Source: Candidatus Falkowbacteria bacterium RIFOXYC2_FULL_36_12 (GTDB lineage Bacteria > Patescibacteriota > Patescibacteriia > UBA11705). Taken from it: 64,000 nucleotides of DNA. The DNA is taken from positions 69,302 to 133,301 of the forward strand of contig MFGJ01000001.1 of the NCBI GenBank assembly GCA_001778235.1, in the 5' to 3' direction. The translations under genes and the position numbers were made by a program. A model generated the notes under the pieces. That model did not search any database, was not told the origin of the DNA, and was given only the letters and a program-made list of their open reading frames with translations. Positions 4,499 to 64,000 of this stretch are shown piece by piece. How positions within the stretch are numbered: position 1 is the stretch's first letter; every line of letters starts with the position of its first letter.

Positions 4499-4966
4499 CT
4501 AGCCTCTTTGCAAGTGCTTGGCTGCTTGACGATCAAGTTCGTGCTCATCAATCTTGAAATACATGGTGACAAAAAAGACTTTTTTATTCGGACTTTCAAG
4601 TTTAACATCAAGCCAAGGAGCAACAATGACTTGGACAGCCCAGTTCCAAGTATTTTCTAGTTTGCGAAATGCATTAATGGCAGTGTCAAAACTGGTGAAA
4701 ATACCTCTTGGATCAATATTATCAATAAATTCGAATGCAAACGAAGCGTCTGGTGAATTAGGCGAACAGGTCTTAGCATATTTCACAAAAAGAGTGCCAG
4801 CAAGAAACTGAATAAAAGTTTCTAGATTGTGGAATAAATGATTTTTTTCACGAAAACCATGTAATTCAATTGGCATTTGTGTCCAAAGCATTTGAGCGAA
4901 TTGATTTAATTCTCGTTCAGCTTGACGACGATAGCCAACAACACTGGTAGCGGTCGGCTGATCCAT
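4499..4966 (-). CDS. Hypothetical protein, paralog of 5151..5582
   Basis: Shares blocks with the 143-aa neighbour (NQFAQMLW.Q.P..L and G.FTSF...I..F..L...W...IQV.I). Confidence 0.5.
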   Translation of the reverse strand: MDQPTATSVVGYRRQAERELNQFAQMLWTQMPIELHGFREKNHLFHNLETFIQFLAGTLFVKYAKTCSPNSPDASFAFEFIDNIDPRGIFTSFDTAINAFRKLENTWNWAVQVIVAPWLDVKLESPNKKVFFVTMYFKIDEHELDRQAAKHLQRG

Positions 4967-14872: not shown

Positions 14873-15556
14873 ATGGCAAATTTTGAAAGTAAAAGCTTGA
14901 AATCAATTGAAACTCTAGGCGAAATATTAAAAAAGCATAGATCAGAACTTAATTTGTCCATGAACCAAATCGCGAGACAGTTTCAGATCAATACTAGATA
15001 TTTGCAAGCTCTGGAAAATGATGCATACGATCAAATGCCGGCTGATATTTATACTCACAATTTTCTAAAAAAATATGCGTCTCTACTCGGACTGAATGCA
15101 TCATCATTGATTTCTCTGCATGAAAGAGAAAAAAATCTATATTTGAAAACCAAAAAAAAGGATAAATCAAAGATTAATAACTTAAGCCTAGGTTCAAAAT
15201 TTCTAAACAAAATTTTGGAGCCAAAAAAGATAAAGGCTTTTTTTATTTTGTTACTATTTGTTATAATACTTACCTATATTGGCTTTAGTATCAGTAAAAT
15301 ATTTTCACCGCCAGAACTGATTATAAAGGAACCAAGTGAAAATAGTATAATTACCCAGAATACAACCCTTGAAATCAAAGGGGTAACAGAGGAAGAAGTT
15401 GAATTAACAATAAACTCAAGACAAGTACTTTATGACCGCGATGGAATTTTCTCGGTACAGCTTGATTTGCAAAAAGGATTAAATGTGATTAAAATAACAG
15501 CAAAGAAAAAACACAGCCAATCCAATACTATTTATAAACAGATTATTGTAGAATAG
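14873..15556 (+). CDS. rodZ: RodZ-like HTH (XRE-type) membrane protein
   Basis: N-terminal HTH (LSMNQIARQFQINTRYLQALE), a central TM helix, C-terminal domain. Confidence 0.55.
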   Translation: MANFESKSLKSIETLGEILKKHRSELNLSMNQIARQFQINTRYLQALENDAYDQMPADIYTHNFLKKYASLLGLNASSLISLHEREKNLYLKTKKKDKSKINNLSLGSKFLNKILEPKKIKAFFILLLFVIILTYIGFSISKIFSPPELIIKEPSENSIITQNTTLEIKGVTEEEVELTINSRQVLYDRDGIFSVQLDLQKGLNVIKITAKKKHSQSNTIYKQIIVE

Positions 15557-27779: not shown

Positions 27780-29429
<1,650 letters not shown>

Positions 29430-29467
29430 ATAAAATTTTTAGAATAATCTGTAATTTAGATTTTTAT

Positions 29468-29497
29468 AAAAGCGGGAATATACCCGCTTTTGTATTA
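29468..29497 (+). terminator. Intrinsic terminator after groEL
   Basis: aaagcgggaatatacccgcttttgtatt. Confidence 0.6.
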
Positions 29498-29499
29498 GC

Positions 29500-29640
29500 A
29501 AAAAAACACTCCAGCGAATAGCTGGTGTGTGCGTTTAGAGGAGAGGTTGTTGAAAGTAGTGGCTAGCAATGAAATTTAAATGTAAGTTGTTGATTTGTTA
29601 AAACAAGTTTTTTTTAGAATAAGTGATTGATTACGCTTCG
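29500..29640 (+). repeat. Repeat module A, copy 1. It ends in a hairpin plus T-run. A second copy lies at 63760..63903.
   Basis: cgaatagctggtgtgtgcgtttagagg...gtagtggctagcaatg...gtaagttgttgat...tttttttagaataagtgattgatt is ~80% identical to 63764-63903. Confidence 0.7.
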
Positions 29641-29815
29641 CGTCTTACTTTTTGGTGGCAAAAAGTAAGCAAAAACCACTGGGTGAACAAATGCGAATTG
29701 TTTTTGTCAAGTTCGTGGTTTTGATGACGCGCTTGTTCACCCAGACCCGATGCTTGGCATGTTTGTGGGGTTGAATGTATAAAGTAAGTTATCATTTTGC
29801 TATAGCAGGTTTTTT
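29620..29815 (+). ncRNA. Repeat unit 1 of a tandem structured-RNA-like family. It has a 5' module, a variable stem, a 3' module and a terminator.
   Basis: 5' aagtgattgattacgcttcgcg + perfect hairpin cttactttttggtggcaaaaagtaag + caaaaaccactggg; variable stem gggtgaacaa/ttgttcaccc; 3' cccagacccgatgcttggcatgtttgtggggttgaa; terminator tgctatagca + T-run. Confidence 0.45.
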
Positions 29816-29820
29816 GAAAA

Positions 29821-30020
29821 AAGTGATTGATTGCGCTTTGCGCCTTACTTTTTGATGGCAAAAAGTAAGCAAAAACCACTGGGGGCTTTAATTGCTACTT
29901 ATGAAAATTATTTTGTGTTTTAAACACGGCAAGAAAGCCCCCAGACCCGATGCTTACCGTGTTCGTGGGGTTGAATAATAAAGTATGTGATTGGTATTGC
30001 TAAAGCAAGTTTTTTTGACA
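29821..30020 (+). ncRNA. Repeat unit 2 of the same family. Its variable stem (gggggcttt/aaagccccc) is compensatory to unit 1.
   Basis: Same 5' and 3' modules as unit 1; only the middle differs, with stem pairing preserved; terminator ttgctaaagcaa + T-run. Confidence 0.45.
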
Positions 30021-30107
30021 CCCTGCCTGAAAGCCTTAGTCTGTCTCGACTTCACGATGAAGACGGGCAAGATGCGTTAAATGTTATTGTTGTTTATATA
30101 TTTAAAT

Positions 30108-30318
30108 TTGTCACTCTGAACTTGTTTCAGAGTATAAAGGGATAGCTTGATTATACCTTGATTATACCCTGAAATCCATCTTCGTTAAAACTTCGATGGA
30201 CAAGTAAATTCAGAGCCTGCCCTGAATTAATTTCAGGGGTGACAAGTGAGAGTGTTGGTAGCGCGCATTACGCCCCCAGATTTGCCTTCATCAAGATTAC
30301 GGCAGGCAAGACCCGAGG
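30108..30318 (+). repeat. Composite of the hairpin ccctgaa-N-ttcaggg (inverted and direct copies) plus a ~100-nt conserved element, the long-form 3' module. It is homologous to 58703..58825.
   Basis: ggtgacaagtgagagtgttggtagcgcgcattacgcccccagatttgccttcatcaagattacggcaggcaagacccgaggctggtcatgttcgtggggttt matches 58724-58825 with few substitutions. Confidence 0.65.
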
Positions 30319-30433
30319 CTGGTCATGTTCGTGGGGTTTAATATTACTGAAGTTTTATTTTATTTTTGACAATCTTGCGTATATTGTGTAAGCTGAAAAA
30401 TGATTTTGTCCTTTTCACCAGACCGGAGGGAAA

Positions 30434-30961
30434 ATGATTCACCTGAAAGTAAATAAGTTTGGTATTGCCCCACTTGACACTTCAAGTGAAAATAATAAGC
30501 GAAATATAGTTGTTCCCTTGCTTGAAATAATGCAAAAAATCAGTGGTGCAACTGACAATTGGTTTAGTCCATCAATAATGAGAGAAGTAAAAATGTATTC
30601 GGCGGAAGATAGAAATATGCCTTCATCATATTTAAAATTATTTGTGGTGTCTGATTTTCTAAATTGCTATGATGACTGGAAACTATTGCTGTGTTTTATT
30701 CTTGATGTTGTTAGTGGAAAACTTTTCCTAATTCAGGTACATTTATATTTAGTACACACATTAACTGAACTTCAGCCAAGGCAAATACCTGATCTGCAAA
30801 AAGGAACTGATATTTTTGGTGTTGTTAATTTCGAGAGATCACTTGATGGGAAAATTGCATTGCAACAAACCTCAATAATTTCAGCTGTAGACCCAGATAA
30901 AAAGCGTGCGTTTCTAAGATTTTACGGGGAATTGGAGAATTATTTGCATAAACCATATTAA
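30434..30961 (+). CDS. Hypothetical protein (175 aa)
   Basis: ORF only; no motif. Confidence 0.35.
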   Translation: MIHLKVNKFGIAPLDTSSENNKRNIVVPLLEIMQKISGATDNWFSPSIMREVKMYSAEDRNMPSSYLKLFVVSDFLNCYDDWKLLLCFILDVVSGKLFLIQVHLYLVHTLTELQPRQIPDLQKGTDIFGVVNFERSLDGKIALQQTSIISAVDPDKKRAFLRFYGELENYLHKPY

Positions 30962-41855: not shown

Positions 41856-41869
41856 AAAATTTAGTTGGG

Positions 41870-41995
41870 TTTCAACAAATTGCAAATCCGCTACAAATCT
41901 ACAAATAGTTGGTTTCAACAAATTGCAAATCCGCTACAAATCTACAAATAGTTGGTTTCAACAAATTGCAAATTCACTACAAATCTACAAATAGT
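41870..41995 (+). repeat. Three tandem copies of a ~41-bp repeat
   Basis: ccgctacaaatctacaaatagttggtttcaacaaattgcaaat x3, nearly identical. Confidence 0.8.
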
Positions 41996-42368
41996 TGGGT
42001 AGTATTCTTTTAAAGGTGACACCGTCATTATTAAATAGTGCCAAGATTCCAAGCTTGAGCCCCGATTGGGATAAGTAACCTTTAACTTGGTCAAAATCCT
42101 TCCTTGATAAACGATCTTTACATTTTAATTCAAGAATAATTTTGTCTTCAACAAGAAAATCAAAGTAATATTGACCTACTACTTCATCTTTAAATTTAAG
42201 CTTCGCACAAAGCTCCTTCGCATGTTTTAAACCAATATCACGAAATTCTTTTGAAACAGCACTCTGGTAATGTTTTTCTTTGTGCCCTGGCCCTAATTCA
42301 TTATAAACCTCAAATAAAACACCCACAATCTTATAACTCAATTCTTTATAAATCACTTTCTCGATCAT
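41985..42368 (-). CDS. GxxExxY-family protein (PD-(D/E)xK-like)
   Basis: GVLFEVY motif and the overall pattern of the GxxExxY family (KEFRDIGL...LELKCK). Confidence 0.6.
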   Translation of the reverse strand: MIEKVIYKELSYKIVGVLFEVYNELGPGHKEKHYQSAVSKEFRDIGLKHAKELCAKLKFKDEVVGQYYFDFLVEDKIILELKCKDRLSRKDFDQVKGYLSQSGLKLGILALFNNDGVTFKRILPNYL

Positions 42369-53937: not shown

Positions 53938-54006
53938 ATACTTGAGATGTTCATAATTGAATGTTGTTGACTTTGTAACAAGTGCAGAGTGACAATTGTA
54001 ATTATA

Positions 54007-54839
54007 TGAAACTTGGTGCACATGTATCAATTGCTGGCGGAATATTTAAGGCTCCGCTCAACGCAAAAAAACTGGGGTGTGAAACCTTTCAGATATTTTC
54101 GAGATCACCAAGAGGTGGAATGCCACCTGAAATAACTGATAATATTGTTGAACAATTTAAAAATAATATGGAGCAGGCTGATATTAAAAACTTTTATATC
54201 CACGCACCATATTTTATTAATCTGGCATCAGATAAACCAAGAATTGCCAAGGGATCAATTGAAATATTAAGATCAGAGCTTGAACGAGGTAATAAACTGG
54301 GAGCGGTCGGTGTAATGTTTCACATGGGTAGTGCCAAGGATTTTGGTTCAACCAAGTCACTTAAAATGGCGATTGATGCAATCAATGAAATATTAGAAAA
54401 TTATGATGGTAAAACATTGTTATTAATTGAAAATTCAGCTGGTGCAGGAGAAATTTTGGGTGATAAATTTGATGAAATTGGATTTATAATAAAGAAAATA
54501 AAAAATAAAGCTAAAATTGGTGTATGTCTGGATACCTGTCATATGTTTGCCTCTGGTTATGATATGAGAGATAAAAAAAGTTTGGGAAAAACATTAATGG
54601 AGTTTGAAAAACATATTGGAATAAAATTTTTGCAGGTTATTCATCTCAATGATTCAAAAACCGAGCTTGGTTCAAATAAAGATAGACATGAAGTAATTGG
54701 AAATGGCTTGATTGGACAAGAAGGTTTCAAACAAATTCTGCATAATATAAAACTGAAATCAGTTGATGGGATTATTGAAACTCCAGATTTGAAAAATAAC
54801 AGTTCCACAAGCTTAAATGTTTTGAAAAAACTAAGATAA
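54007..54839 (+). CDS. nfo: Endonuclease IV (AP endonuclease, TIM-barrel)
   Basis: MKLGAHVSIAGG N-terminus; metal-binding His/Asp/Glu pattern (HAPYFINLAS...CLDTCHMFASGYD...HLND). Confidence 0.8.
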
Positions 54840-57517: not shown

Positions 57518-57600
57518 GTTCAAGATCGTCAAAATGACGGTTTTTTCTTTTATTTAATTTTAGGGACAAACAATACTTTTGTGTCGTAAAACTATACTTC

Positions 57601-57620
57601 AATGTTTCACGTGAAACATT
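57601..57620. promoter_or_regulatory. 20-bp perfect palindrome aatgtttcacgtgaaacatt (copy 1); putative operator or recombination site
   Basis: Perfect dyad centred on CACGTG; an identical copy lies at 58450-58469. Confidence 0.5.
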
Positions 57621-57793
57621 TTATAATGTTATTATTTTTTAGAATATTTATATAACTTGAGTAAGCATTTATAAATATTCATATAGTGATCAATTGATGA
57701 TGAGATAACACATCTAATACCTAAAATATCCACTACACTATTTTAATCATACATACTAATATTGAGTATTTTGTGATTGAATTGTTAAATGAT

Positions 57794-58135
57794 TGATTTT
57801 AAAGTAAATTTAAACAAAATTTAGCTATTTGTATAGACTATTGTAGACAAACAGAAAATAAGTTAAATCCTGTTTTTAAAGTAAATTTAAACAAAAATAC
57901 GCGTTTGTATAGACCATTGTAGACATCTATGTGATATTTTCCGAGTAAATACCTATAATTTGCTAATAATCAACATTTTTATAGTAAATTTAAACAAAAA
58001 TTAGCGTTTGTATAGACTATTGTAGACATTTATAAAATTTTCTGTTAAAAATCTGAAATAACCCTACTTTTTTGATTTTAAAGTAAATTTAAACAAAAAA
58101 TAGCCCTAGATGTATAGACCATTGTGTACAAACAT
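57794..58135 (+). repeat. Array of four degenerate ~50-bp direct repeats (iteron-like)
   Basis: Core agtaaatttaaacaaaa...tttgtatagac[ct]attgtagaca at ~57797, 57875, 57977, 58075; spacers of ~28-50 bp differ. Confidence 0.7.
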
Positions 58136-58229
58136 GCTAAATTTTGGTAGTTATCAATAGTTTATCCACAGAATTTTGGTATTTTGGCTGTAATATTGGT
58201 GGAAAAACTATATACTTATTTTTATACCC

Positions 58230-58449: not shown

Positions 58450-58469
58450 AATGTTTCACGTGAAACATT
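58450..58469. promoter_or_regulatory. 20-bp perfect palindrome aatgtttcacgtgaaacatt (copy 2)
   Basis: Identical to 57601-57620. Confidence 0.5.
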
Positions 58470-58618
58470 TTTTATTTATAATAATATTTTTTTATTATTT
58501 TTACTAGAATTAAACATATTAAAGTGTCGTAAAATATTAATTATTTAATTATCAAAGAGTAAAAGTTTTGAAGAGTGATAATTAATATTCAAAACGCATG
58601 AAACAAGATTTCCTTTGG

Positions 58619-58919
58619 CCATGCACTATAAACAAGTTTAAGTGCATGGCGAGTAAGCTCGCTGTGGGAAAAGTTTCGAGTGAGGAATAAAAATTAATTA
58701 TTTATACCCTGAAACAAGTTCAGGGTGACAGGTGAGTGTGTTGGTGGCGCGCATTACCGCCCCAGACCTGCCTTCATCAAGATTACAGCAGGCAATCCCC
58801 GAGGTTAGTTATGTTCGTGGTTTTATCACGAGAGAAATTGTTTATACCCTGAAACAAGTTCAGGGTGACAAATTGGGAGATACTGAAACCATGCACTATA
58901 AGCAAGTTTAAGTGCATAG
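58619..58919 (+). repeat. Nested direct repeats. The outer hairpin ccatgcactataaacaagtttaagtgcatgg occurs twice. The inner tataccctgaaacaagttcagggtgaca occurs twice. The core is a ~100-nt conserved element.
   Basis: Outer copies at 58619-58649 and 58889-58919; inner copies at 58703-58730 and 58843-58870; core 58724-58825 is homologous to 30238-30318. Confidence 0.7.
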
Positions 58920-58966
58920 AGTGTAAGCTAAGGACAGGCTTCTCATCCTGTCTGTTTAAAATAAAA

Positions 58967-63730: not shown

Positions 63731-63754
63731 ACCGCTTCACAGCGGTTTTTTGTT
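63731..63754 (+). terminator. Intrinsic terminator after pnp
   Basis: accgcttcacagcggtttttt. Confidence 0.65.
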
Positions 63755-63759
63755 AACCT

Positions 63760-63945
63760 TAAAACCCACCGACGAATAGCCGGTATGTGCGTTTAAAAGA
63801 AAAACAATTGAATGTAGTGGCTAGCAGTGTAATTTAAGTGTAAGTTGTTGATGTTGCTATGGCAAATTTTTTTGAGAATAAGTGATTGATTTCGCTTTGC
63901 GTGGTCCACCGAAACCACGCACTATAAACAAGTTTAAGTGCATGG
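63760..63945 (+). repeat. Repeat module A, copy 2, followed by a cgtgg...ccacg hairpin and a copy of the cactataaacaagtttaagtgcatgg hairpin
   Basis: ~80% identical to 29500-29640; terminal hairpin shared with 58619-58649 and 58889-58919. Confidence 0.7.
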
Positions 63946-64000
63946 CAAGCAAGTTCGGTGCATGTTTTTGTAACCAGTTCTATTGAGATATAGTGATATT

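What the first reader, a model, noticed from the sequence alone, without database searches (positions are those of the whole stretch)
29500..30345. Tandem ~200-nt units with shared 5'/3' modules, own terminators and compensatory stem changes: a family of structured small RNAs or miniature elements
Downstream of groEL there are two head-to-tail units, 29620-29815 and 29821-30020. Each starts with aagtgattgatt-cgc-ttgcg, followed by a perfect 10-bp hairpin (cttacttttt...aaaaagtaag) and caaaaaccactggg. Each ends with cccagacccgatgctt...gttcgtggggttgaat plus a hairpin and T-run terminator. The ~60-nt middle is unrelated in sequence but forms a stem in both. In unit 1 it is gggtgaacaa/ttgttcaccc; in unit 2 it is gggggcttt/aaagccccc. 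This is textbook covariation and argues for a functional RNA structure rather than junk. A preceding module A (29500-29640) and a following long-form element (30238-30318, containing the hairpin ttgcct...aggcaa) belong to the same family. Each unit has its own terminator, so the locus resembles an array of independently terminated small RNA genes. I cannot assign them to any RNA family I know.
Basis: seen in the sequence. Interest (0 to 1): 0.7.

Follow-up and report, generated by a model that had tools for sequence, protein, structure and literature searches.

The report
Mosaic hairpin repeats after groEL
The two 200-base units after groEL are real copies of a previously undescribed, hairpin-rich modular repeat family found in a few Falkowbacteria (candidate-phyla-radiation bacteria), and they look more like a mosaic intergenic repeat family than an array of separately expressed small RNA genes.

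Summary
Two head-to-tail units of exactly 200 nt (29621-29820, 29821-30020) share 5' and 3' modules. Each has a 56-nt divergent middle closed by different, perfectly complementary stems.

Module A and a shortened unit (30244-30342) belong to the same family. More copies lie after pnp (63743 to the window end) and between two tRNA-Arg genes (58600-58935).

The host is Candidatus Falkowbacteria RIFOXYD2_FULL_35_9. The family also occurs in metagenome contigs with other gene contexts. It is absent from about 170 kb sampled from the nearest relatives, from Rfam, and from the phage and plasmid collections.

Stem covariation is strong: 95% of cells are paired and 12 pairs carry double changes. Every change in the three strong stems is Watson-Crick to Watson-Crick.

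The "own terminators" are hairpins of only -0.3 to -3 kcal/mol, and no sigma-70-type promoter-like site precedes the units on the + strand.

Units are built from optional, nested and reshuffled hairpin modules, and one array differs between strains.

Best reading: a lineage-restricted composite intergenic repeat family of the BOX/BIME/NIME kind, probably folding as + strand RNA when transcribed. Independent small RNA genes remain possible.

The parts
29465..29494 (+). Intrinsic terminator of groEL (AAAAGCGGG-AATATA-CCCGCTTTT). The array begins just after it.
   Evidence: Inverted repeat I3. Folding energy -15.5 kcal/mol. groEL is 27792-29429.
29500..29620 (+). Module A, the first element of an array. 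It has hairpin CCAGC-GAATA-GCTGG (29511-29525), then a 'tail' (weak hairpin 29593-29608 and T8 at 29608-15) and AGAAT.
   Evidence: 79% identical copy at 63743-63902 after pnp. Further copies in L005, L007 and L017. The hairpin covaries between copies (CCAGC/GCTGG against CCAC/GTGG), as read.
29621..29776 (+). Unit 1 core, 156 nt. Parts: AAGTGATTGATT; P1 29633-29643; P2 29644-29669; linker; P3 hairpin 29679-29744 (type a); 3' module CCCAGACCCGATGC..GTTTGTGGGGTTGAAT.
   Evidence: Covariance model R1 scores 148.6 bits. Counterpart L005 785-971 has a 96.8% identical P3.
29777..29820 (+). Unit 1 tail: AAAGTAAGT.., a 4-bp hairpin TTGC-TATA-GCAG, T6, GAAA. It resembles a truncated unit start (5' module, small hairpin and the 5' arm of P2).
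   Evidence: Repeat family D2. Folding energy -2.0 kcal/mol. Compared with L009 and L017, where the same tail runs straight into a complete P2 hairpin.
29821..29976 (+). Unit 2 core, 156 nt. Parts: P1 29833-29843; P2 29844-29869; P3 29879-29944 (type b); 3' module 29940-29976.
   Evidence: R1 scores 153.2 bits.
29977..30020 (+). Unit 2 tail: weak hairpin TTGC-TAAA-GCAA, then T7 at 30010-30016.
   Evidence: -2.1 kcal/mol.
30021..30243 (+). Composite stretch of other hairpin modules of the same repeat system. It holds palindrome TTGTCA-CTCTGAA-CTTGT-TTCAGAG-TATAAA (30108-30138), an 11-nt tandem repeat (30142-30172), a palindrome interrupted by hairpin TCCATC..GATGGA, and palindrome CCCTGAATTAATTTCAGGG (30220-30238).
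   Evidence: The pieces recur at 58701-58730, 58841-58870, 53970-54010 and many times in L002. The 11-nt repeat is present once in other strains.
30244..30342 (+).
   Evidence: R1 27.4 bits, E = 4e-4. nhmmer with the 3' module E = 7e-12. 85% identical copy at 58707-58820.
58600..58935 (+). Second locus of the family, between tRNA-Arg(CCT) and tRNA-Arg(TCT), which are both on the - strand. It holds two CATGCACT..AGTGCATG hairpins, two palindromes and one shortened unit (58730-58828).
63743..64000 (+). Third locus, after the pnp terminator: a module A copy, then a unit starting at 63880 that runs off the window. The full array is seen in L018 12198-12690.

Best explanation
This is a lineage-restricted family of composite (mosaic) intergenic repeats built from stem-loop modules.

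Anatomy (shown). A complete unit has a 156-nt core. It consists of the single-stranded AAGTGATTGATT, small hairpin P1, hairpin P2 (10-11 bp, A/T-rich), a linker, a 60-64-nt hairpin P3 whose sequence comes in several types, an optional 26-nt hairpin, and a short hairpin ending in GGGGTTGAAT. A 44-nt tail follows, which looks like a truncated unit start.

Placement (shown). Units stack head to tail in non-coding DNA next to genuine gene terminators, usually just downstream of one and behind a leader-like module A.

Origin of the arrays (inferred). They grow, shrink and reshuffle through DNA-level processes at the hairpins and short direct repeats: slippage, template switching, unequal or ectopic recombination, and possibly an unidentified enzyme acting in trans. 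The same processes, or strong selection for stable stems, keep the long stems perfectly Watson-Crick.

Expression (inferred). The units are probably not autonomous genes. Where they are transcribed, by read-through or weak internal signals, the + strand would fold into the hairpin series. It could then act like REP or BOX elements, as 3' structures that buffer read-through or mRNA decay.
For: Modularity:
- Unit length ranges from about 37 nt (array in L002) to more than 300 nt (after pnp), always bounded by AAGTGA.. and ..GGTTGAAT.
- The optional hairpin is flanked by AGACC direct repeats. It is present in L005 unit 1 and absent from the otherwise near-identical window unit 1.
- L009 carries a 39-nt palindromic insertion inside the P2 loop.
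- One palindrome is split by another hairpin.
- The tail runs into a full P2 hairpin in L009 and L017.

Strain variation:
- An 11-nt repeat is doubled only in the window.
- In L017 the array has a different module order and a different upstream gene.
- L007 unit 1 is flanked by a duplicated terminator.

Distribution:
- Five loci lie in roughly 95 kb sampled from this organism.
- The family occurs on metagenome contigs with other gene contexts (L002/L006/L007 and L005).
- There are no convincing matches (best 16 bits) in about 170 kb from relatives at 80-84% GroEL identity or 71-77% GAPDH identity.
- The 5' motif gives only one chance hit among the GTDB representative genomes.

Gene signals:
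- No + strand sigma-70-type promoter-like site and no terminator passes the scan in 29350-30500.
- Tail hairpins fold at -0.3 to -3.1 kcal/mol.

Stems and composition:
- 95.1% of cells are paired, against 78.3% in shuffles. 42 cells show double changes and none shows a one-sided change.
- Orientation relative to flanking genes is not fixed. The units are co-oriented after groEL and pnp, and antisense at the tRNA and rpsP-KH loci.
- Unit cores have 42-44% GC, against 24% in ordinary spacers.

Precedent: pneumococcal and S. suis BOX elements are modular, range from 67 to 637 bp, form stem-loops, have a patchy distribution and are expressed when co-transcribed (PMC3049150).
Against: - No terminal inverted repeats or clear target-site duplications bound the units.
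- No candidate mobilising enzyme was found near the arrays in this organism. tblastn with a RAYT-like protein and with a GIY-YIG protein from related loci gave nothing.
- Several features suggest constraint beyond selfish spread. Core length is 150-156 nt once the optional inserts are removed, and P3 length is 60-64 nt. The single-stranded 5' motif and the 14-nt loop UUCAUCAAGAUUAC are close to invariant. P3 types are conserved at 91-98% between loci and contigs.
- Wobble pairs in the weaker stems favour the + strand, 16 G.T against 2 A.C. T-runs of 6-8 follow nearly every tail hairpin. Both fit an RNA-level role on the + strand.
- No expression data were available.
Confidence: 0.5

Rival explanations
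1. The units are a paralogous family of independently expressed structured small RNAs of about 160-200 nt on the + strand. They would share a scaffold (5' single strand, P1, P2 and the 3' hairpin) and carry an exchangeable central hairpin (P3) that gives each paralogue its specificity, with a weak terminator at each end.
For: - Stems are compensated.
- Wobble pairs in the weaker stems fit the + strand, 16 against 2.
- T6-T8 runs follow every tail hairpin.
- Core length and P3 length are conserved, and P3 types are 91-98% conserved between loci and contigs.
- The single-stranded 5' motif and the loop sequence are conserved.
- GC content is higher than in ordinary spacers.
- A -10-like TAGAAT or GAGAAT sits directly before AAGTGATTGATT.
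Against: - No -35 element and no promoter-like site passes the scan on the + strand.
- Terminator hairpins fold at only -0.3 to -3.1 kcal/mol.
- No complement of the 5' motif or of the conserved loop was found in the window beyond chance.
- The three strong stems show no one-sided changes at all.
- Module shuffling, nested insertions, 37-nt mini-units and absence from sister lineages are unusual for a functional RNA gene family.
Confidence: 0.27
2. The elements act as double-stranded DNA or through the - strand. They would be arrays of protein-binding dyads or promoter-like sites, such as the TTGTCA-N19-TATAAT palindrome or TTAGCA-N17-TATTAT in the tails, that drive or block transcription, or that serve as recombinase sites.
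For: - All four promoter-like hits in 29350-30500 are on the - strand, and three of them sit in repeat tails or modules.
- The palindrome has near-consensus -35 and -10 hexamers around a dyad with a 19-nt spacer. It precedes a GIY-YIG ORF in L002.
- The only terminator-like hit in the region is on the - strand, at the module A hairpin.
- Strictly Watson-Crick stems fit a duplex or dyad constraint.
Against: - The number of promoter-like hits equals what shuffles give (4 against 3.5 +/- 1.9).
- The hairpins are asymmetric, with internal loops and long non-palindromic apical parts.
- Wobble positions would be A.C mismatches on the - strand.
- No T-runs follow hairpins between units on the - strand.
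Confidence: 0.1
3. The region is something already classified: a CRISPR-like array, a type III toxin-antitoxin RNA repeat upstream of the 175-aa ORF, type I toxin peptide cassettes, or decayed coding sequence.
For: - The spacing is regular at 200 nt, with a variable 56-nt segment.
- An ORF of unknown function follows directly (30434-30961).
- Short ORFs exist inside the units: 27 and 25 codons on the + strand, and 82 aa on the - strand (and reading).
Against: - There are no cas genes nearby.
- The 'spacers' are self-complementary and recur on other contigs.
- The conserved part is 144 nt long.
- The 175-aa protein matches no Pfam family and has only a marginal PADLOC hit (E = 0.029). It is absent next to the other arrays.
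- The small ORFs read the shared 3' module in different frames and are missing from other units.
- Rfam's best CRISPR hit has E = 0.34.
Confidence: 0.03

Closest known systems
BOX-type composite repeats of Streptococcus pneumoniae and S. suis (boxA-(boxB)n-boxC; boxE/boxF families)
   Same: - Both are composite elements with fixed boundary modules and a variable number and kind of internal modules.
- Both have a wide size range (BOX 67-637 bp; here about 37 to more than 300 nt per unit, with arrays up to about 1 kb).
- Both are predicted to fold into a series of stem-loops in which internal modules can be added without disturbing the rest.
- Both are intergenic and vary in length between strains.
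- Both are patchy, present in a few close lineages and absent from relatives.
- In both, chance ORFs arise on both strands of large copies (PMC3049150).
   Different: - BOX elements have terminal inverted repeats and target-site duplications and are thought to be MITE-like. Neither feature was found here.
- Here whole units repeat head to tail, each with a 44-nt tail.
- There is no sequence similarity to BOX.
- The host is a candidate-phyla-radiation bacterium with a very small genome.
REP / BIME elements of Enterobacteria and Pseudomonas (REPINs, mobilised by RAYT transposases)
   Same: - Both are extragenic, hairpin-forming, GC-richer than the surrounding spacers and clustered into mosaics with other motifs.
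- Both often sit just after the 3' ends of genes (PMC2817692).
   Different: - REPs are 20-40-nt imperfect palindromes with a GTAG or CGTC head, and they alternate in orientation within BIMEs (PMC2817692, PMC3733652). These units are 156-nt multi-hairpin blocks, all in one orientation within an array.
- No RAYT gene was found in the sampled DNA of this organism. A RAYT-like gene does occur in relatives that lack the family.
Neisseria intergenic mosaic elements (NIMEs: repeat units of 50-150 bp separated by dRS3 inverted repeats). This comparison is from my own knowledge; I did not check it in a paper.
   Same: Both are arrays of medium-sized repeat units in intergenic DNA downstream of genes. 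In both, a short palindrome serves as an alternative junction between units; here that is TATACCCTGAA-N5-TTCAGGGTGACA in the L002 and tRNA-locus arrays.
   Different: There is no sequence relation. In the groEL array the junctions are tails ending in T-runs, not palindromes. dRS3 is a known integration target for phage, and nothing comparable is shown here.
Tandem 'sibling' small RNA genes (for example LhrC1-4, OmrA/B, SibA-E). This comparison is from my own knowledge.
   Same: Both are head-to-tail paralogous units of 100-200 nt in an intergenic region, each ending in a hairpin plus a U-run.
   Different: - Sibling sRNAs have recognisable promoters and strong terminators, and they usually conserve the targeting region while other parts drift.
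- Here the signals are weak or absent.
- Here the scaffold is conserved and the central hairpin varies.
- Here the modules are shuffled and nested.

Membership tests
Any Rfam 15 RNA family | Covariance-model score at or above the family's gathering threshold | tested here: not met
   In the window only three tRNAs reach threshold. In 29350-30500 nothing scores above 25 bits, all far below threshold, best E = 0.07. The arrays in L005, L006, L007, L009 and L018 give nothing either.
Independently expressed small RNA gene | Own promoter upstream of each unit | tested here: not met
   No + strand sigma-70-type promoter-like site in 29350-30500. Only a -10-like TAGAAT or GAGAAT without a -35 is present (reading). 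The same scan finds strong promoter-like sites next to ychF and groES. A promoter scan is only a proxy for real promoters.
Independently expressed small RNA gene | Intrinsic terminator at the 3' end | tested here: inconclusive
   A T6-T8 run follows a hairpin in every tail. The stems are only 4-6 bp and fold at -0.3 to -3.1 kcal/mol, against -6.2 and -15.5 for the pnp and groEL terminators. None passes the terminator scan.
Independently expressed small RNA gene | Discrete transcript of unit length | not testable with these tools
   No expression data are available.
Structured RNA family (generic) | Conserved secondary structure supported by compensatory changes | tested here: met
   On alignment A4, 95.1% of cells are paired against 78.3% in shuffles, and 35-59% when partners are slid. 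12 of 23 pairs carry changes on both sides (0 of 500 shuffles reach this). Caveats: there are few independent sequence types, the alignment was fitted to the model, and there are no one-sided (G-U) changes.
REP / BIME | A 20-40-nt imperfect palindrome with a conserved GTAG or CGTC head | tested here: not met
   The hairpins P1, P2, P3 and the optional hairpin carry no such head, and P3 is 60-64 nt long.
REP / BIME | Successive palindromes in alternating orientation | tested here: not met
   All units in an array are direct repeats on one strand.
REP / BIME | Cognate RAYT (Y1 transposase) gene in the genome | tested here: inconclusive
   tblastn with the RAYT-like protein of L023 finds nothing in the window or in other loci of this organism. 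Only about 95 kb of the genome was sampled.
BOX-type composite repeat / MITE | Modular build: fixed end modules with variable internal modules, and length variation between strains | tested here: met
BOX-type composite repeat / MITE | Terminal inverted repeats and target-site duplication | tested here: not met
   No inverted repeat joins the unit or array ends. Only the optional 26-nt hairpin is flanked by a 5-nt direct repeat (AGACC), and slippage deletion explains that equally well.
BOX-type composite repeat / MITE | Many dispersed copies in one genome and a patchy distribution among relatives | tested here: met
   Five loci in about 95 kb of this organism. No convincing matches in about 170 kb from the nearest sampled relatives.
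CRISPR array | Short (about 24-48 nt) identical repeats separated by unique spacers, with cas genes nearby | tested here: not met
   The conserved part is 144 nt. The 56-nt variable parts are self-complementary hairpins that recur on other contigs. No cas domains are found in the neighbouring genes.
Type III toxin-antitoxin (ToxIN-like) | Tandem RNA repeats of about 34-45 nt directly upstream of a ToxN-family endoribonuclease gene | tested here: not met
   The repeat period is 200 nt. The downstream 175-aa ORF has no Pfam hit and no meaningful PADLOC hit. Arrays elsewhere lack such an ORF.

The most novel reading that the evidence does not exclude
The units are true RNA genes. They would form a family of about 160-200-nt structured RNAs specific to some Falkowbacteria, with a conserved four-hairpin scaffold and a swappable 60-64-nt central hairpin. 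The sequence types of that hairpin are kept at 91-98% identity between loci and contigs, so it could act as a built-in specificity module for an unknown protein or nucleic-acid partner in organisms with minimal genomes.
Probability: 0.2. Interest if true: 0.65.

Novelty: new member of a known kind. Interest (0 to 1): 0.36.

Why it matters
Candidate-phyla-radiation bacteria have genomes of about 1 Mb that are thought to be streamlined. This organism nevertheless carries kilobase-scale arrays of hairpin repeats at several loci. One of them has a different upstream gene in another strain. That points to an active source of genome plasticity in an uncultivated lineage, and I found no description of it.

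In practice, such arrays can mislead gene callers and RNA-discovery pipelines. Here an 82-aa ORF spans two units, and the units show 'covariation'.

If the units turn out to be expressed RNAs, they would be a new structured RNA class with a modular specificity hairpin.

Tried and rejected
- Rfam at gathering thresholds and at E up to 10, on the window and on five other loci: no family.
- ARAGORN: only the three known tRNAs.
- Exact 5' motif in the GTDB representative genomes: one chance hit in an Acetobacteraceae genome. In viral contigs: none.
- blastn of the whole array against the phage and plasmid collections: no match.
- Coding hypothesis. The small ORFs in units 1 and 2 read the shared 3' module in different frames, and other units have no ORF. 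Rejected.
- Target search. Complements of the 5' motif and of the conserved 14-nt loop occur in the window only at the level expected by chance.
- CRISPR, type III toxin-antitoxin and defence-system readings: rejected.
- Link to a RAYT or GIY-YIG enzyme: no homologue in the sampled DNA of this organism.
- Strand assignment from folding z-scores: not discriminating (+ strand -3.1 and -2.95; - strand -4.9 and -3.0).
- Column-wise pair counting on plain MAFFT alignments (A1-A3). The stems were out of register by one column between sequences. I used the model-fitted alignment A4 and a hand tally instead.
- Alignment A2 contained two sequences with grafted 5' parts. I did not use it for any count or model.
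- Relatedness of the organism behind L002/L006/L007 to the window's organism. No shared genes lie in the sampled stretches. Its GAPDH is 71% identical to that of its best named relative, a Falkowbacteria genome.
- Literature search for such repeats in Patescibacteria: nothing relevant.
Full report
**1. What is in the sequence**

groEL (27792-29429) follows groES and ends with a strong terminator at 29465-29494. The next gene, a 175-aa ORF of unknown function, starts at 30434. The 1 kb between them is filled with repeats.

Two units of exactly 200 nt lie head to tail at 29621-29820 and 29821-30020. Their first 62 nt and last roughly 37 core nt are 89-95% identical. The 56 nt between these parts differ.

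Each 156-nt core contains, in order:
- AAGTGATTGATT;
- a 4-bp hairpin, P1 (ACGC/GCGT in unit 1, GCGC/GCGC in unit 2);
- a perfect 11-bp hairpin, P2;
- CAAAAACCA;
- a long hairpin, P3, closed by CTGGGTGAACAA/TTGTTCACCCAG in unit 1 and CTGGGGGCTTT/AAAGCCCCCAG in unit 2;
- AGACC;
- a short hairpin ending in GGGGTTGAAT.

A 44-nt tail follows each core. It consists of AAAGTAAGT.., a 4-6-bp A/T-rich hairpin and a run of 6-8 T.

Shuffled versions of the window give 0 expected matches to the 5' or 3' motifs, against 3 observed for each. The corrections are minor: P2 has 11 bp rather than 10, and the 3' module of unit 1 reads GTTTGTGGGG.

**2. The family is larger and modular**

Module A (29500-29620) has a 79% identical copy after the pnp terminator at 63743-63902. 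A new unit starts there at 63880 and runs off the window. The complete pnp array is visible in another contig of the same organism (L018 12198-12690).

A third locus lies between two tRNA-Arg genes at 58600-58935. A fourth lies next to the rpsP-KH genes in a strain variant (L014 19818-20468, identical to L009).

The stretch 30021-30345 is a composite. It holds other hairpin modules of the same repeat system, then a shortened unit at 30244-30342 that carries an extra hairpin, TGCCTTCATCAAGATTACGGCAGGCA.

Signs of modular build across loci:
- Unit size ranges from about 37 nt (a tandem array in L002) to more than 300 nt (after pnp), always bounded by AAGTGA.. and ..GGTTGAAT.
- The extra hairpin is optional. 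It is flanked by AGACC direct repeats and never occurs outside units.
- One copy carries a 39-nt palindromic insertion in the P2 loop (L009).
- A palindrome, TTGTCA-CCCTGAA-N5-TTCAGGG-TATAAT, can replace the tail as the junction between units, and can itself be split by another hairpin.
- In L009 and L017 the tail runs straight into a complete P2 hairpin. The 'terminator' therefore looks like a truncated unit start: a 5' module, a small hairpin and the 5' arm of P2.

**3. Host and distribution**

The GroEL protein is 100% identical to that of Candidatus Falkowbacteria bacterium RIFOXYD2_FULL_35_9. The same DNA occurs in assembly GCA_001778075.1 and in several groundwater metagenomes.

A metagenome scan with the 5' motif returned true relatives on contigs with other gene contexts: L002/L006/L007 and L005. 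The GAPDH on L002 is 71% identical to that of its best named relative, a Falkowbacteria genome.

I built a covariance model (R1) from nine units. It recovers every known copy, always on the unit strand. It finds nothing convincing (best 16 bits) in about 170 kb from the nearest sampled relatives, which stand at 80-84% GroEL identity or 71-77% GAPDH identity (blastn and nhmmer agree).

In those relatives, the groEL-ychF interval holds several small ORFs instead of an array.

The 5' motif is absent from the GTDB representative genomes apart from one chance hit. The whole array has no match in the phage or plasmid collections or in Rfam.

The density is high in this organism (five loci in roughly 95 kb), and the phyletic distribution is patchy.

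**4. Structure and covariation**

RNAalifold and the model-fitted alignment support P1, P2 and the base of P3:
- 95.1% of cells are paired, against 78.3% in shuffles and 35-59% when partners are slid.
- 12 of 23 pairs carry changes on both sides, which none of 500 shuffles reaches.

My hand tally, transcribed from the sequences, gives eight distinct versions of P2 and six of the P3 base, all fully Watson-Crick as tallied. One copy, L006 unit 1, was trimmed for that tally: it carries an extra A in P2 and a single unpaired G in P3.

The 'variable' middle is constrained. P3 is 60-64 nt in every unit. It keeps an inner stem (TTGC/GCAA or TGCG/CGCG) and falls into types that recur at other loci or on other contigs at 91-98% identity: window unit 1 with L005 at 96.8%, L006 with L009 at 98.4%, and L007 with L018 at 90.6%.

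Two facts limit what the covariation means:
- In the three strong stems all 42 changed cells are double Watson-Crick swaps, and none is a one-sided G-U change. RNA families usually show such intermediates. A DNA palindrome kept perfect by template switching or conversion would not.
- Only about six independent sequence types exist.

Some evidence points to the + strand. In the weaker stems (the tail hairpin, the inner P3 stem and the optional hairpin), non-Watson-Crick pairs are G.T 16 times and A.C twice. The + strand is rich in G and T. T-runs follow hairpins only on the + strand. This is suggestive but not decisive, because the copies are related and base composition already favours G.T by about two to one.

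**5. Are they independent genes?**

The promoter and terminator scan finds no + strand promoter-like site and no + strand terminator in 29350-30500. The four promoter-like hits are all on the - strand and match the number expected from shuffles.

The same scan finds strong promoter-like sites next to ychF and groES in this genome. Only a -10-like TAGAAT or GAGAAT, without a -35, precedes AAGTGATTGATT.

The tail hairpins fold at -0.3 to -3.1 kcal/mol, against -6.2 for the pnp terminator and -15.5 for the groEL terminator.

Arrays lie next to genuine terminators, in most cases just downstream of one, so read-through would be limited. Their orientation relative to neighbouring genes is not fixed: same sense after groEL and pnp, antisense at the tRNA and rpsP-KH loci.

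Folding z-scores are similar on both strands. No expression data could be consulted.

**6. Dynamics**

- Strains differ by an 11-nt duplication (30142-30172).
- In L017 the array after module A has a different module order and a different upstream gene block (rnpA-yidD and following genes in place of groESL).
- In L007 one unit is bracketed by a duplicated terminator.

These are the marks of slippage and recombination among repeats.

**7. Interpretation**

The best-supported reading (about 0.5) is a lineage-restricted family of composite intergenic repeats built from stem-loop modules. It is of the same kind as pneumococcal and S. suis BOX elements, BIMEs and NIMEs.

BOX elements share the fixed end modules with variable internal modules, the wide size range, the predicted stem-loop series, the strain variation, the patchy distribution, and expression only when co-transcribed (PMC3049150).

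This family is not a member of any of those families. It lacks terminal inverted repeats, a GTAG-type REP head, alternating orientation and any sequence similarity to them.

The following keep it alive:
- the length constraints;
- the invariant single-stranded motif and loop;
- the conservation of P3 types between loci and contigs;
- the + strand wobble bias;
- the T-runs.

The two readings are not exclusive, since interspersed repeats are often transcribed and can affect neighbouring genes. DNA-level or - strand function (about 0.1) and the already-classified systems (CRISPR, toxin-antitoxin, coding; about 0.03) are less likely.

**8. Verdict**

The family is real, new to the databases I could search, and resides in an uncultivated candidate-phyla-radiation lineage. 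It belongs to a known kind of genomic feature. The specific claim of independently terminated small RNA genes is not borne out by the sequence signals. Interest is moderate. RNA-seq with end mapping and a whole-genome, whole-clade census would decide between the two leading readings.

Noticed in passing
window 30108-30138 (+), 58730-58701 (-), 58870-58841 (-), degenerate copy 54010-53970; L002 5445-5990 and 6250-6290: A repeated palindrome, TTGTCA-CCCTGAA-N5-TTCAGGG-TATAAT. It has near-consensus -35 and -10 hexamers around a perfect dyad in a 19-nt spacer, the geometry of MerR-type promoters (from my own knowledge). It is tandemly repeated about 8 times in L002 and sits directly upstream of an 86-aa GIY-YIG-like ORF there. 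Compensated arm variants exist (CTCTGAA/TTCAGAG).
   Followed up: partly
window 57518-58229: A 712-nt non-coding stretch with 24% GC. It holds four direct repeats of about 80-100 nt (TTTTAAAGTAAATTTAAACAAAAATTAGCGTTTGTATAGACYATTGTAGACA, 57784-58134) and a perfect DnaA-box sequence, TTATCCACA, at 58162-58170. It may be a replication origin or an iteron region.
   Followed up: no
window 57601-57640 and 58450-58492: Two copies of a perfect 20-nt palindrome, AATGTTTCACGTGAAACATT, each followed by a T-run. They bracket the AT-rich repeat region next to tRNA-Arg.
   Followed up: no
window 41862-41998; also L006 ~4760-4800: A 43-nt tandem repeat, 3.2 copies at 96% identity (TAGTTGGTTTCAACAAATTGCAAATCCGCTACAAATCTACAAA). 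The CTACAAATCTACAAA motif also appears just upstream of the unit array in L006.
   Followed up: no
window 58617-58650, 58888-58920, 63913-63945: Another recurring hairpin module, CATGCACTATAAACAAGTTTAAGTGCATGG, always found inside these mosaic arrays.
   Followed up: partly
window 29631-29879 (-): An 82-aa ORF on the minus strand spans the junction of units 1 and 2. It is almost certainly a by-product of the repeats, as is reported for large BOX elements, and could be miscalled as a gene.
   Followed up: partly
L023 8114-8644, L025 8132-8662, L028 17391-17987: Related Falkowbacteria that lack the unit family encode RAYT-like Y1 (HUH) transposases (motifs MPNHFHGIL and SFYDHIIRD). In L023 and L025 the gene lies between wzy and groES. 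The groEL-ychF interval in those genomes is a variable island of 2-6 small ORFs.
   Followed up: partly
L018 15400-15600 (same organism, about 3.4 kb beyond the window's right end): A GC-richer non-coding stretch in a 570-nt spacer that also contains TTATCCAC-type boxes (15140-15165). It looks like a structured RNA, but no Rfam family reaches threshold.
   Followed up: no
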